This document shows positions 20,639 to 50,879 of a stretch of 64,000 nucleotides of DNA, one piece after another (positions within the stretch are counted from its first letter, which is position 1; each line of letters begins with the position of its first letter). The notes under the pieces were generated by a model that was given only the letters and a program-made list of their open reading frames with translations, did no database searches and had not been told where the DNA came from. The DNA is taken from assembly GCF_009914755.1 (NCBI RefSeq), contig NC_060935.1, one strand, 5' to 3'. The DNA is from the human T2T-CHM13v2.0 reference genome, Homo sapiens. Both the position numbers and the translations under genes were made by a program.

Positions 20639-23219
20639 GAATATCTGTACATAGGAGGTGCTAAATAATTAGTCTGAAGAGCCTAAGAGTATCCTGTTTT
20701 CAGTAGATGCTCACTAACATATATAAAGAAGGTACTCTAGATGTAGTCTAAAACATGGCTAGTATACTGCAGGTGCTCAATAATGAGCACACGGAGCTTA
20801 GTTGGATTGAAGCCCAGCAAAGCACGTGATGTAGGTAAAGCTGTCAGAAAGGCACACAGAGCCGCACATGGTGACAGCCCACAGTTGGCAGTCAATAATG
20901 TCTGTCCAGTGCCTGGCAGTGTTCAGCCCCCAGCGGACATGGAGTTAGCAGGCGAAACTGCTGGCATCATGTCCACACCCAGAGGACAAATGCAACTTCC
21001 GACAAAAGCAGCCAGCACATGGCTTGGAGGGAGCAAGGCAGGCAGATCACCACCACCACTGGGCACAGTCCAGAGCCAGGGTTCTGGGCAGCACAGGCTT
21101 CCATCACCGCATCCATGCTATGTGTGCTGCACGTGTCCCCAGAGCACTTGGCACAATGCATGGCCCATGGTGGGGGGTGGACAAAGCAGTGCCTGGCCCA
21201 TGACAGGAGTTGTCAACAGAGAAGGTAATGCAGATACCACTGGGTCTGCACAGAGTGGAGGGCACTAGTCCACCCTCCATGCTCATTCTTCATTCTCCAA
21301 TCTCTCTTCTCCATTCTCCGTACTCTATACTCCATTCTCCACCCTCCATTCTCCATATTCCACCCTCCATACTCATTCTCCATAGTCCACCCTCCATACT
21401 CATTGTCCGTGCTCCATGATGTATTCTCCATTCTCCAACCTCCATTCCCCATATTCCATTCTTCAACCTCCATTCTCCATATTCCACCCTCCATACTCAT
21501 TCTCCATGCTCTATGCTATATTCTCCATTCTCCAATCTCCATTCCCCATATTCCATTCTCCATATTCTACCCTCCATTCTCCATATTCCACCCTCCATAC
21601 TCATTCTCCATCATCCACCCTCCATACTCATTCTCCAACCTCCATTCTCCATCGTCCACCCTCCATACTCATTCTCCCTACTCCATTCTCCAACCTCCAT
21701 TCCCCATATTTCACCCTCCATACTCATAGTCCATACTGCATTCTCCACCCTCCATTCTCCATGCTTTACTCTCCATTCTGCATGCTCCATTCTCCGTATT
21801 CCACCCTCCATACTCATTGTCCATGCTCCATGATGTATTCTCCATTCTCCAACCTCCATTCCCCATATTCCATTCTTCATATTCCACCCTCCATTCTCCA
21901 ACCTGCATTCTCCATAGTCCACTCTCCGTACTCTAATCTTCATTCTCCATACTCCATACCCTACCTCCATTTTCCTTATTCCATTCTCCATTCTCCATAC
22001 TCCATTCTCCAGAGTCCACTCTCCCTACTCTAACCTTCATTCTCCATTCTCCATACTCCATACTCCAACCTTCATTCTCCATACTCCATACCCAACCTCC
22101 ATTTTCCTTAGTCCATTCTTCATTCTCCGTACTCCATAATCCATACTCCATTCTCCTTTCTCTGTACTCCATGCTCCATTCTCCTTTCTCCATTCTTCTT
22201 TCTCCATAGTTCATTCTTTATTCTCTTTTTTTCATACACCATACTCCATTCTCCATTTTCTCTTCTCTGTATGCCATTCTCCACAAACAGTTTTTCATTC
22301 TCCATACCTGTATTATATTCTGCATCCTCAATACTCTATTCTCTGTACTCCATTCTTAGTTCTGTTTTTTCATACTCCATCTCCATAATCTACAGTCCAG
22401 AATTCATTCTCCACTCTCCCTTTTTTAGACTCCACCCTCCAGACACCATTCTCTATTCTCCTTTCTCCATACTTCATTCTCCGTATTCCATTCTTTATAC
22501 ATTATTCTTCATTATTCATACCCTGTACTACATTTGCTATTCTCATTTCTTCATATTCCATACTCCATTCTCCATACATCATTCCTCTTCTCCATTTTTA
22601 TCTTCTGTTCTTCATTATTCATACTCCATTTCCTTTTTCCATTCTCCATACACCATTCTTTATTCTCCATAAGCAACATTTCATTCTTCACTCTCCATAC
22701 ACCATGCTTCATTCTCCATAATACAGACTGCACATCAATTCTTTATTCTCCATTCTCCATACTCCAATCTTATTCTCCTTTCTCTATACTTCATTCTCCA
22801 TCCCCATTCTCCATTCCTTATACTTAATTCTTCAATCGTCATTCTTCATGCTCCATTCACTATTTTCCATTCTGCCTACTCCATTCTTCCTTCTCCAGAC
22901 TCCATACTGCATGCTCCCTTTTCGATTCTCCTTCCTCCACACCTCGTTCTCCATACTTCATTCTGTTCTTCATACTTCATTCTTCGTCGTGAATCCTCCA
23001 TTCTCTATTCTCCATTCTTAATTATCCATACTGTATACCCCCAGAATCCATGTTCCATTCTCCATTTTTCATATTCCGTTCTCCAAACACCATTCTCCAT
23101 GTTTTTTTCTCTCAATAATCCATTCTCCATACACCATTCTCAGTTCTTCATTCCCCATACTCTGTTCTTCTTTCTCCATAATCCATTATCTACATACCAT
23201 TCTCCATTTTCCTTTCTCC

Positions 23220-23355
23220 ATTTCTTTCTCTCTCTCTCTCTCCTTCCTTCCTTCCTTTCCTTCTTTCCTTCTTTCCTTCTTCCTTTCCTTTCCTTTCCTT
23301 TCCCTTCCCTTCCCTTCCCTTTCCTTTTCTTTCTTCTTTTCTTTCTTTCTTTTTT
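23220..23355. repeat. (CCTT)n/(CTTT)n microsatellite at Alu tail
   Basis: Pure pyrimidine tract abutting the poly(T) of the following Alu. Confidence 0.9.
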
Positions 23356-23606
23356 GAGACAGAGTCTCGCTCTGTCTCCCAGGCTGAAGTGCAGTGGCGA
23401 GAACTATTTGCAGTGGTTCAAACTATTCTCCTGCCTCAGCCTCCTCAGTAGCTGGGAATACAGGCATGCACCAATTTTTACATTTTTAGTAGAGACGGGG
23501 TTTCACCATGTTGGCCAGGCTGGCCTTGAACTGCTGGCCTCAAATGATCCACCTGCCTCAGCCTCCCAAACTGCTGGGATTACAGGTGTGAGCCACCATG
23601 CCCAGC
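23345..23606 (-). mobile_element. AluS, internally deleted/rearranged
   Basis: gagacagagtctcgctctgt...gagccaccatgcccagc; part of the right arm is missing. Confidence 0.9.
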
Positions 23607-24011
23607 TCCTTTATCCATTTCTATATCCCATTCTTCATTCTTAATACTTCATTCTCCATTCTTCTTTCTCCATACACCGTACTTTGTTTTCCAATTTCAT
23701 TCTTCATACTTGATTCTACATAATTTATATTTCAGATTCCATTTTCCATTGTTTTTTCTCCATTCTCCAAACTCCAAACTTCATACTTCATTCTCAAATC
23801 TCCTTCCTTCATATTCCGTACTCCATTCTTTATACACCATTCTCGGATCTCCATTTTTTCATTTTCCACAGTCCATTCTTCATACTTCATACTGCATTCT
23901 CCACTCTTCGTTTTCCAGTCTCCATGCTGCATTCCCCATACTCCATATGTTATTCACTGCTCTTCATTTTCCATACTCCATACTCCATACTCCATACTGA
24001 ATTCTATATTC

Positions 24012-48744: not shown

Positions 48745-49156
48745 TGCGTTCTCTATCCTCCATTCTCATTATCCATCTACGGTCTCCAGAATCCATACTC
48801 CATACCCCACATTGCATTCCCCATCACCATTCTGCGTTTTCTATACTCCATCCCGCAAACTCCAATTTCCATTTTCCACACATCATTTTCCATTCTCCAT
48901 CCCCCACACTCAGTACTTCATCCTTCATATTCTGTACTTCATTCCTTGTTTTCCGTTCTCCATGCTCTATGGTTCATACTCTATTCTTCATACTTCATAC
49001 TCCATACTCCATTCTTGACGCGCCATTCTCCATATTCTGCGCTCATTTTCCACATTCCTCTCCTTTTCATACTCCATTCTTCATTCTCCATACTCTGTTA
49101 TTAGATGCTACAGTTTCCCTTGTTCATTCTCCATACTTTTCTGTCCATATTCTATC

Positions 49157-49500
49157 CAGATGCTTCTGAGTTATGAGAGTTATGTCTTGATAAACACATC
49201 ATACGTGAAATACATTGTTTAAGTCCAAAATGCATTTAATACACCTAATCTACTGAAAATCATAGCTGAGCCCAGCCTGTCTGGAACATGCTCAGAGCAC
49301 TCACACTAGCCTGGCTGACTGGGGGCTGTGGCTCGCGGTTGCCCAGCAGCTTCATGAGACAATATTCTACTTCAGGTCACTAGCCTGGGAAAACGTCAAA
49401 ATTCCAGATTTGAAGTATGGCTTCTACTGAATGCACATCACTTTCACACCATTGTAAAAAAAAATTGTAAGTTGAACCATTGTAAGTCAGGGACTGACTG
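49157..49500 (+). mobile_element. Tigger4-derived MITE, copy 2
   Basis: cagatgcttc...aatgcatttaatacacctaatctactga...gttgaaccattgtaagtcagggactgactg|ta. Confidence 0.85.
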
Positions 49501-50879
49501 TACTCCGTTCTCTAATCTCCATTCTGCACGCTCCATTTTCCATGTGCTCCTCTCCATACTGCACACTTCTTTCTCTATTCCCCACTCTGCATCACTGTTC
49601 CCCATACAGCATGCTCCATGACCCACTCTTACGATGCATTCCACATTCTGTCCACCATACCCTACCTCACGCTCCACCCTCCATTCTCAATTCTCCATCC
49701 TCCTTACACCAAACTCCATCTCTACTCCCTTTTTCATTCTCCATGCTCCATTCTTCATTCTCCATGCTCCATCCTCTCAACCCCATTTGCTACCTCTATC
49801 ATCCATTCTCCACTCTCCATTCTCCATACTCACTCCATTTTCCATACATCTTCCATGTTCCAGGCTGCTACAGCATTCTTCAGACTTCATTCTCCATCCT
49901 CCATTCTTCATCTTGTATACTCTGCCTCCACATTCAGTCTTTTCTTTATACTCCATTTCCCATTCTCCTCACTTCACTCTCAATGTTCCATGCTCCATTC
50001 TCCATCCTTTATAGCCAGTGCTCCATTCTCCATGTTCTCTTCCCCATTCTTCATGCCCACTGTCTATTCTGCTTACTCCATTCTCCATGTCCCATATGTC
50101 CCCATGCTTCACACTGTGTACCCCACACTCCATTCTTTCTGTTCCATCCTTCACACACCATTATGTCCACTCACACCCCTCTCTCCTGGAGGCTTTTCTA
50201 TCTTTCTTCTTGTCTCTGACTTCCAGCAGCCCCCTCCACCATCCTGTCCCACTAGGGACCTGGCCTTTCAGTTGTCTCGGTGCACATCACGCCCTGCCCC
50301 ATGCCCACCAACACGTGCTGTGCCCACCAACCTCTGTGCCTATCCCATGAAATCGCTCCTTTCCCTCAATGTTGGGTGGAAACTCCCCATGCTCCTTCAA
50401 AGTTCACCCGTCCATTGGAGAGCAGGTTCCTGCCCCAGCTCAGGATATCGCGGCAGGAGGAACGTTCTCACAGGCCCCTCTCCTGGGTTAACCTGACTCT
50501 GCCTCAGCCTCTCCTTCTAGGAGACCTCAACCTGCAACAGCCCAAACCTTCCCCTAAGGAAGAAATGATAACAGTTGCTAGTGAGTTTGGAGTCTTCCTT
50601 CACTCACCAAATCCCAAAAGGATATGATCTGAAAGTCAAAATTAGGAGGACAGTGAAAGAGCCATGCAGCTATCCGGGAAAAGATCCCCTTTCAGGGTCC
50701 TTCCAACGTCCTGATGAAGGATATTCCTTTCATCTGAAAACCAGCAAACACACGGGCCACCCAGACGATTCCTCCACTGTGTCTCCACTTGACCCCAGCC
50801 TGTCCTCTCCTTAACACACCCCAAGCTCAGCAGTGACCCCCTCAAGGCACTCCACCCAAGGTCCTGGCTCAGGACCCCC

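What the first reader, a model, noticed from the sequence alone, without database searches (positions are those of the whole stretch)
21265..50200. ~29-kb ancient interstitial heptamer satellite (CTCCATW)n in GC-rich euchromatin-like DNA
Seen: roughly 22 kb net of TEs of degenerate 7-bp periodic sequence, with an abrupt left edge at ~21265 and nearly no G on the + strand. Established: HSat2/3 are built on the 5-mer CATTC and lie mainly pericentromerically, whereas this unit is CATTC plus TC. AluJ, Tigger1 and Tigger4 are early-primate elements. Inference: because these elements sit inside it, the array is very old, yet it persisted and still duplicates locally. It may be an under-described satellite family that annotation tools would split into short simple-repeat or low-complexity hits. 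It is a candidate chromatin boundary, nuclear anchor or satellite-RNA locus. No function is shown.
Basis: partly seen in the sequence, partly recalled or inferred. Interest (0 to 1): 0.8.

Follow-up and report, generated by a model that had tools for sequence, protein, structure and literature searches.

The report
Old single-locus heptamer repeat array
A 29-kb stretch between the human H19 and IGF2 genes is a very old, decayed tandem repeat of the 7-base unit CTCCAT(T/A) that occurs at essentially this one place in the genome and shows no sign of a function.

Summary
Window 21268-50190 is a period-7 (CTCCATW)n array. Lag-7 identity is 0.51 against a background of about 0.30, and net array is about 21.8 kb in a 28.9-kb interval. 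It has about 3,150 units, 78% per-site identity to the consensus and 3.8% G on the + strand.

It is old. A 2.3-kb Tigger/pogo transposon sits in it with the 7-base register continuous across the insertion. It also holds a duplicated short transposon-like insert, eight Alus and one L1-like fragment.

It no longer behaves as a live satellite. Unit-to-unit identity is the same at every distance (0.59-0.61, random pairs 0.60), and no run of perfect units exceeds 3. Later events are limited to one 125-bp triplication (97%) and old multi-kb duplications (75-83%).

It is not a satellite family. Of 47 genome-wide matches to five units with up to 3 mismatches, 43 lie in this array and 4 in one 56-bp chr6 microsatellite. 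It has no period-5 signal, so it is not HSat2/3.

All nine L1-driven inserts are on the minus strand, as expected from 61 versus 3 TTTTA sites.

Most likely it is a neutral fossil array. One speculative lead remains: a review places it inside the reported 91H transcript, which would then carry about 1,000 PTBP1-type motifs. Orthology and Dfam/CenSat annotation could not be checked.

The parts
21268..50190 (+). Whole heptamer array interval, (CTCCATW)n on the + strand, including inserted elements
21281..22250 (+). Left-edge sub-array. More C-rich, with 13-19-unit (90-132 bp) higher-order repeats 76-82% alike, and the lowest C-to-T share (0.149)
23212..23355 (+). (TTCC/TTTC)n microsatellite lying where the A-tail of the adjoining minus-strand Alu would be
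23356..23606 (-). Alu (partial)
24012..24303 (-). Alu with poly-T on its left on the + strand
25215..25905 (-). Alu split by an unrelated insert of about 390 bp at about 25400-25795
28258..28644 (+). 125-bp (18-unit) block in 3.1 copies at 97% identity. This is the only recent duplication
29071..33440 (+). Copy A of an old multi-kb internal duplication
   Evidence: Collinear matches at 74-83% against a background 99th percentile of 0.745
29687..29979 (-). Alu, present in copy A only
33757..34049 (-). Alu flanked by the target-site duplication CATTCTCATTTTTT
34049..39097 (+). Copy B of the old internal duplication
36679..36986 (-). Alu, 12 CpG left, present in copy B only
37398..37692 (-). Most diverged Alu (15.4% at non-CpG sites)
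38519..38817 (-). Alu
42905..43618 (-). Very high-copy dispersed repeat with poly-T on its left. I read it from recall as an L1 3' end
   Evidence: 13,172 first-look candidates, of which 40 were scored. The 39 non-self copies are 83-86% identical. Pfam found nothing. Sequence
45225..45400 (.). Short non-heptamer insert, not identified
45995..46310 (.). Short transposon-like insert, copy 1, ending ...CTG followed by TA
46406..48743 (-). Tigger/pogo-type DNA transposon of about 2.34 kb, decayed
   Evidence: DDE_1 E=1.2e-14 and CENP-B_N E=2.5e-5. Full-length genomic copies are 74-79% identical, from 5,738 candidates. The heptamer register is continuous across it
49165..49500 (.). Short transposon-like insert, copy 2. 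It is 71% identical to copy 1, and the similarity runs into the heptamer flanks
49450..50190 (+). Right-edge heptamer segment, more C-rich

Best explanation
This is a fossil, single-locus heptanucleotide array. A 7-base unit, probably the 14-base dimer CTCCATT-CTCCATA, was amplified by slippage and unequal exchange to tens of kilobases. This happened before a Tigger-type DNA transposon and a short transposon-like element landed in it, so no later than early-primate times and possibly around the radiation of placental mammals (inferred). Array-wide homogenisation then stopped. Since then the units have decayed independently, mainly by C-to-T changes. There were a few block duplications and one small recent triplication. 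The T-rich + strand offered L1-endonuclease sites almost only on that strand, so all eight Alus and the one L1-like fragment were inserted in the same orientation. The array most likely has no sequence-specific function. It is passive spacer DNA 40-69 kb upstream of H19, and it is probably transcribed only as a passenger of the reported 91H antisense transcript.
For: Shown directly:
- Period 7 and composition.
- 3,148 aligned units with 78% per-site identity. Only 532 are perfect CTCCATT or CTCCATA. T replaces C at 16%, 29% and 23% of the three C positions, while T-to-C and A-to-G changes are 5-8%.
- Unit identity is flat with distance: 0.590-0.614 from 1 to 400 units, against 0.599 for random pairs.
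- The longest perfect run is 3 units.
- The array is genome-unique: 43 of 47 matches, 9 of 10 matches, and 92 of the 100 listed rows of 157 matches.
- The Tigger element carries DDE_1 and CENP-B_N. Once the element and one TA are removed, the flanks read CATTCTC CACTCTA CGTTCTC TATCCTC CATTCTC (read from the sequence).
- One Alu has a target-site duplication made of heptamer sequence.
- TTTTA occurs 61 times on the + strand and 3 times on the - strand. Nine of nine L1-type inserts are on the minus strand, two-sided p = 0.004.

Relative ages:
- Seven array Alus are 2.6-7.3% diverged at non-CpG sites and one is 15.4%.
- The L1-like copy is 83-86% identical to other genomic copies.
- The Tigger copy is 74-79% identical to other full-length copies.
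- The A/B duplication is 74-83% identical.
- The two short-transposon copies are 71% identical.

Passages of Giordano et al. 2007 (PMC1914374) place Tigger1/2/5 activity near the divergence of mammalian orders.
Against: - No other primate or mammal genome could be searched, so the age rests on inserted elements and on decay from an assumed homogeneous start.
- The Tigger subfamily was not identified.
- No chromatin, transcription or population data were examined, so lack of function is a default and not a result.
- Survival of 29 kb for this long could reflect constraint.
- The distal edge lies 69.2 kb upstream of the H19 start. This coincides with the reported 3' limit of 91H, 'about 70 kb upstream' (review PMC3588099).
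- The + strand carries 1,095 YUCUYY motifs against 594 +/- 26 in shuffles.
- Both edges are less C-to-T decayed than the interior (0.149 and 0.178 against 0.23-0.29). I explain this only partly, by a later higher-order amplification at the left edge.
Confidence: 0.72

Rival explanations
1. Repeat-RNA platform. Transcribed in the + sense as the distal fifth of the maternal, nuclear 91H RNA, the array would give (CUCCAUU)n RNA. That RNA would hold about a thousand pyrimidine-tract sites and could bind PTBP1 or similar proteins many times over, as PNCTR does, near the IGF2/H19 domain.
For: A review (PMC3588099, section 1.2, passages read) puts human 91H from MRPL23 intron 1 to about 70 kb upstream of H19, which would cover window 21268-50190 on the + strand. 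The array holds 1,464 overlapping and 1,001 non-overlapping YUCUYY/YYUCUY motifs on the + strand and none on the - strand. PNCTR has 2,178 overlapping and 565 non-overlapping motifs (PMC6224606, passages).
Against: The primary 91H paper is not held, so transcription across the array is second-hand. RefSeq annotates no gene in the window (hub table). The motif is low in information and follows from the composition: YYUCUY is depleted, 369 against 592 +/- 22. The units decay as if unconstrained. The PNCTR paper's main text mentions neither H19 nor chr11.
Confidence: 0.06
2. DNA-level structural role. The AT-rich, strand-asymmetric block set in GC-rich DNA would act as a chromatin boundary, a matrix or lamina attachment site, or a required spacer between the H19 control region and IGF2.
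For: There is a sharp composition step, from 63% GC to 33-44% GC. The block lies in an imprinted domain whose regulation depends on looping. It has persisted for a long time.
Against: No motif is kept better than the mutation spectrum predicts. The best-kept positions are the T and A positions (80-87%) and the worst are the C positions. No binding or chromatin data were available here. TE insertions and block duplications have been tolerated throughout.
Confidence: 0.1
3. The array was never homogeneous. It was built late from units that had already diverged, so the decay-based age is an overestimate.
For: Variant units such as CTTCATT (130) and CTTCATA (88) are common. Block duplications did occur.
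Against: Amplification of diverged blocks would leave long-range periodic similarity. Apart from the named duplications, no diagonal exceeds background, and identity is flat with distance. The Tigger and the duplicated short transposon-like insert still set a minimum age.
Confidence: 0.1
4. It is a diverged member of the HSat2/HSat3 (CATTC)n satellites, or of a dispersed heptamer satellite family.
For: The unit contains CATTC.
Against: Lags 5, 10 and 15 give 0.305, 0.319 and 0.274, so there is no peak. CATTCCATTC occurs 4 times in 21.8 kb. The genome-wide pattern and DNA searches find no second block.
Confidence: 0.02

Closest known systems
HSat2/HSat3 pentameric (CATTC)n-derived satellites
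   Same: Short-unit tandem DNA with strong strand asymmetry, and the word CATTC occurs inside the unit.
   Different: The period here is 7, not 5. It is a single interstitial locus about 2.1 Mb into the chr11 contig, not multi-locus pericentromeric DNA (hub coordinates). It is not homogenised.
Decayed microsatellite or simple-repeat tracts of the kind found by TRF-type tools
   Same: A unit of 7 bases, origin by slippage or unequal exchange, decay by point mutation, and fragmentation into many low-scoring TRF rows (146 rows).
   Different: The size is about 22 kb net and about 3,150 units, far larger than ordinary simple repeats. The age is set by a Tigger insertion.
Previously unannotated interstitial satellite arrays of T2T-CHM13 (Hoyt et al. 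preprint, 10.1101/2021.07.12.451456)
   Same: Interstitial arrays outside centromeres that earlier libraries did not name.
   Different: The main text names neither chr11 nor H19. The example read there, WaluSat, has a 64-nt unit and is multi-locus.
PNCTR, a short-tandem-repeat-rich RNA that binds many PTBP1 molecules (PMC6224606)
   Same: A comparable number of YUCUYY/YYUCUY motifs on one strand.
   Different: Transcription and binding are not shown here. Motif density per kb is lower. PNCTR comes from the rDNA spacer and is made by pol I.

Membership tests
HSat2/HSat3 | Period-5 (CATTC)n-derived repeat | tested here: not met
   Lag-5 identity is 0.305 against 0.550 at lag 7. There are 4 CATTCCATTC words in 21,790 bp.
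HSat2/HSat3 | Multi-locus, mainly pericentromeric distribution | tested here: not met
   This is one locus at chr11:2.129-2.158 Mb. 43 of 47 pattern matches are there.
Satellite DNA in the general sense | Long head-to-tail tandem array | tested here: met
   About 3,150 units over 28.9 kb.
Satellite DNA in the general sense | Ongoing homogenisation or higher-order repeats across the array | tested here: not met
   Identity is flat with distance at 0.59-0.61. Only local exceptions exist.
Satellite DNA in the general sense | Heterochromatic packaging | not testable with these tools
   No chromatin data are available here.
Known Dfam, RepeatMasker or CenSat entry | An existing named annotation at these coordinates | not testable with these tools
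   No Dfam or CenSat library is available. The T2T repeat preprint's main text does not mention chr11 or H19, and its supplements are closed.
PNCTR-like multivalent protein-binding repeat RNA | High count of YUCUYY/YYUCUY motifs on the transcribed strand | tested here: met
   1,464 overlapping and 1,001 non-overlapping motifs on the + strand, against 2,178 and 565 in PNCTR.
PNCTR-like multivalent protein-binding repeat RNA | Transcribed, and bound by PTBP1 | not testable with these tools
   The only support is a review statement on the extent of 91H.
Tigger/pogo DNA transposon (the insert at 46406-48743) | pogo-type transposase domains | tested here: met
   DDE_1 E=1.2e-14 and CENP-B_N E=2.5e-5, in 2 of 8 ORF pieces scanned.
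Tigger/pogo DNA transposon (the insert at 46406-48743) | Terminal inverted repeats and a TA target duplication | tested here: inconclusive
   The left end reads TA|CAGGAATGCC. The right end reads ...GGCTG|TG, with about 7 of 13 terminal bases complementary. Read by eye.
Alu (the eight inserts) | 7SL-derived dimer with an A-tail | tested here: met
   Metazoa_SRP matches of 28.7-63.3 bits, all below the gathering score of 70. Poly-T lies on the + strand to the left of the copies. Copies are 76-88% identical to one another.

The most novel reading that the evidence does not exclude
The array is the working part of the maternally expressed nuclear 91H RNA. About 22 kb of (CUCCAUU)n would offer roughly 1,000 non-overlapping PTBP1-type sites. 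That would make an imprinted, locus-tethered protein sponge or scaffold at IGF2/H19, and it would explain why the reported 3' limit of 91H coincides with the array's distal edge.
Probability: 0.05. Interest if true: 0.75.

Novelty: new member of a known kind. Interest (0 to 1): 0.3.

Why it matters
The array makes up about a fifth of the DNA between the H19 control region and IGF2, one of the most studied imprinted intervals. I found no description of it in the searchable literature. Knowing that it is single-locus, old and diverged has a practical use. Short reads should map to it, so existing chromatin, CLIP and nascent-RNA data can be read there directly. It is also a clean natural example of strand composition dictating the orientation of L1-driven insertions. 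As a biological finding it is modest, because it is most likely neutral fossil repeat DNA.

Tried and rejected
- Rfam at gathering scores found nothing in 19000-53000. At E <= 0.01 it gave 26 matches, all inside the Alus (20334-20616 and the array copies). They are to SRP RNA or to the miRNA families mir-1268, mir-3135 and mir-383, and I treat the miRNA matches as Alu by-products.
Stop-free ORF pieces were scanned instead.
- Pfam on four ORF pieces of the 42905-43618 insert found nothing. Its L1 identity is therefore from recall plus copy number.
- A sensitive self-BLAST timed out and was replaced by a unit-level dot plot.
- A 42-place degenerate genome pattern exceeded the tool's 35-place limit, so a 35-place pattern was used.
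- The chr7:89.518 Mb match from the DNA search is a different minisatellite of about 300 bp. The chr6 match is a 56-bp microsatellite.
- Papers not held: Berteaux 2008 on 91H, Pace and Feschotte 2007, and the published Hoyt 2022.
- Papers on the mouse Igf2/H19 intergenic region gave no description of a comparable repeat.
- Long + strand ORFs of 288-370 aa are rejected as genes. They follow from the near absence of G and the resulting scarcity of stop codons.
- YY1 (CCATNTT, 154 sites) and TEAD (CATTCC, 55 sites) words occur, but only as by-products of the unit, and they were not pursued.
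Full report
**Observation.** The window is human T2T chr11:2,108,001-2,172,000 (hub note, confirmed). From about 21268 to about 50190 the + strand changes character. GC falls from 61-67% to 33-44%, and GC skew drops to between -0.5 and -0.84. Identity at lag 7 is 0.512 in 21265-45700, against 0.28-0.33 at neighbouring lags. It stays high at multiples of 7 (0.39 at lag 70), while both flanks show no peak. 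TRF gives 146 rows, dominated by period 7, 14 and 21 with consensus CTCCATT at 57-64% matches. A sliding-window caller finds 13 heptamer segments totalling 23,730 bp. My trimmed segment list gives 21,790 bp of a 28,926-bp interval, with A 20%, C 32%, G 3.8% and T 44%.

**Anatomy of the units.** A wrap-around alignment to CTCCATW yields 3,148 units with 77-83% per-site identity. Only 284 CTCCATT and 248 CTCCATA units are perfect. The commonest change is C to T, at 16%, 29% and 23% of the three C positions. T-to-C and A-to-G changes are 5-8%, and G is 1-7% at every position. Position 7 alternates between T and A slightly more than chance (adjacent units the same 0.442, expected 0.526), which hints at an ancestral 14-base dimer. 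Identity between two units does not depend on their distance. It is 0.590 to 0.614 from 1 to 400 units apart, and 0.599 for random pairs. The longest run of perfect units is 3, and the longest exact lag-7 self-match is 22 bp. The array is therefore no longer being homogenised and has no pure core.

**Local exceptions.** In a unit-level dot plot the median per-diagonal maximum is 0.685 and the 99th percentile is 0.745. Three features stand out above that background.
- The left-most 1 kb (21281-22250) has 90-132-bp higher-order repeats 76-82% alike.
- A 125-bp block at 28258-28644 is present in 3.1 copies at 97%.
- There is a collinear old duplication: 29097-29504 with 34089-34498 (0.81), 31024-31339 with 36118-36440 (0.75), 31620-32016 with 37018-37657 (0.83), and 33131-33440 with 38435-39097 (0.74).

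Alus at 29687, 36679 and 37398 are each present in only one of the two copies, so the duplication came before them (inference). C-to-T decay is lower at both edges (0.149 and 0.178) than in the interior (0.23-0.29). The later higher-order amplification at the left edge explains part of this. The rest is unexplained.

**Inserted elements.**
- Eight Alus lie in the array, all on the minus strand. They match the SRP RNA model below its gathering score, as expected for Alus, and match each other at 76-88%.
- One Alu (33757-34049) is flanked by CATTCTCATTTTTT on both sides. Another is split by an insert of about 390 bp. The (TTCC)n tract at 23212-23355 lies where an Alu tail would be.
- The 714-bp insert at 42905-43618 has poly-T on its left. 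It gave 13,172 first-look candidates genome-wide, of which 40 were scored, and the 39 non-self copies are 83-86% identical. I read it from recall as an L1 3' end. Pfam gave nothing.
- The block 46406-48743 is a Tigger/pogo-type transposon on the minus strand. Two of eight ORF pieces hit DDE_1 (E = 1.2e-14) and CENP-B_N (E = 2.5e-5). Full-length genomic copies are 74-79% identical, from 5,738 candidates of which 40 were scored.
- After removing the Tigger element and one TA, the flanks read CATTCTC CACTCTA CGTTCTC TATCCTC CATTCTC. The 7-base register is preserved, so the element entered an existing array.
- A short transposon-like insert occurs twice (about 45995-46310 and 49165-49500) at 71% identity, and the similarity extends into the heptamer flanks. 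This suggests a duplication of about 900 bp that the Tigger later split (inference).

**Orientation bias.** TTTTA, the core of the L1 endonuclease site (established knowledge), occurs 61 times on the + strand of the array and 3 times on the - strand. A nick on the T-rich strand places the retro-element's sense strand on the opposite strand. This predicts what is seen: nine of nine L1-driven inserts are on the minus strand (two-sided p = 0.004). Four Alus to the right of the array are also on the minus strand, in DNA that is also T-rich.

**Age.**
- Measured against a majority consensus of the window's 13 Alus, seven array Alus are 2.6-7.3% diverged at non-CpG sites and one is 15.4%. GC-to-AT transitions per GC site are 1.6-8% for the seven and 12% for the oldest.
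- The array's C-to-T share of 16-29% is thus 3-5 times that of most resident Alus and up to about twice that of the oldest.
- If the array started homogeneous, its last homogenisation is roughly twice as old as the oldest Alu. Usual Alu ages are from recall. On those ages, the start points to the base of primates or earlier.
- Giordano et al. 2007 (PMC1914374, passages read) place Tigger1/2/5 near the divergence of mammalian orders. I did not establish the subfamily of this copy.
- No non-human genome was available, so orthology is untested.

**Is it a family?** The whole T2T genome could be searched.
- Five units (CTCCATW)x5 with up to 3 mismatches give 47 matches. Of these, 43 are on the + strand at chr11:2,129,323-2,157,013 (window 21323-49013) and 4 overlap within one site on chr6. 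The reversed-pattern control gives 0.
- A looser pattern gives 157 matches against 5 for the control. Of the 100 rows listed, 92 are in the array. The other 57 matches were not listed.
- A 28-mer gives 9 of 10 matches in the array.
- A 4-kb piece used as a DNA query finds only the array's own distal part, a chr7 site and the chr6 site. That tool skips simple repeats, so this result is weak evidence.
- The chr7 site is a different minisatellite of about 300 bp, and the chr6 site is a 56-bp microsatellite.

This is a single-locus array. There is no period-5 signal, so it is not HSat2/3.

**Literature.** No paper in the searchable library prints the heptamer or its dimers in this context. Searches on H19/IGF2 intergenic repeats found nothing that describes the array (passages). 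[quoted passage not shown] Most subscription journals are not searchable here, so I cannot say that the array is undescribed.

**Possible function.** A review (PMC3588099, passages) states that the human 91H antisense RNA is nuclear, short-lived and maternal. It places the RNA from MRPL23 intron 1 to about 70 kb upstream of H19. The array spans 40.3-69.2 kb upstream of the H19 start (hub coordinates), so 91H would contain it in the + sense and end at its distal edge. The primary paper is not held. In that sense the array carries 1,095 YUCUYY motifs (shuffles 594 +/- 26) and 369 YYUCUY motifs (shuffles 592 +/- 22), and none on the other strand. Of these, 1,001 are non-overlapping. PNCTR has 2,178 overlapping and 565 non-overlapping motifs (PMC6224606). 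This is a lead only. The motif follows from the composition, and the units decay as if unconstrained.

**Verdict.** The structure and the old age are supported. The array is most likely a neutral fossil repeat, unique to this locus, and not a satellite family or an HSat relative. Interest is modest.

Noticed in passing
window 53136-53441: A 32-bp tandem repeat of 9.7 copies at 80% matches, in the GC-rich DNA just beyond the array. Its role is unknown.
   Followed up: no
window 57790-58007: A 28-bp tandem repeat whose copies are 100% identical at offsets 28 to 140. It looks like a young minisatellite.
   Followed up: no
window 13947-14178: A 47-bp tandem repeat at 92-96% identity in the GC-rich left flank.
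   Followed up: no
window 25400-25795: An unrelated element of about 390 bp is inserted inside a minus-strand Alu, so it is younger than that Alu. It was not identified.
   Followed up: no
window 20467-20518, 29801-29852, 36799-36850 and others: Sub-threshold Rfam matches to mir-1268, mir-3135 and mir-383 all lie inside Alus and are by-products of Alu sequence.
   Followed up: partly
window 42062-43030, 43515-44381, 44930-46042 (+ strand): Stop-free frames of 288-370 aa run through the array. They arise from the near absence of G and are not genes.
   Followed up: partly
window 21281-22650 and 48853-50190: Both edges of the array are more C-rich and less C-to-T decayed than the interior (0.149 and 0.178 against 0.23-0.29). 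This is only partly explained.
   Followed up: partly
L009 (chr7:89,517,900-89,518,300) and L010 (chr6:141,312,643-141,312,698): These are the only non-chr11 DNA matches. One is a minisatellite of about 300 bp with a longer TCTCCATTTTCC-type unit, next to a (GGGGAGA)n/Alu-like sequence. The other is a 56-bp (TATGGAG/TGTGGAG)n microsatellite.
   Followed up: yes
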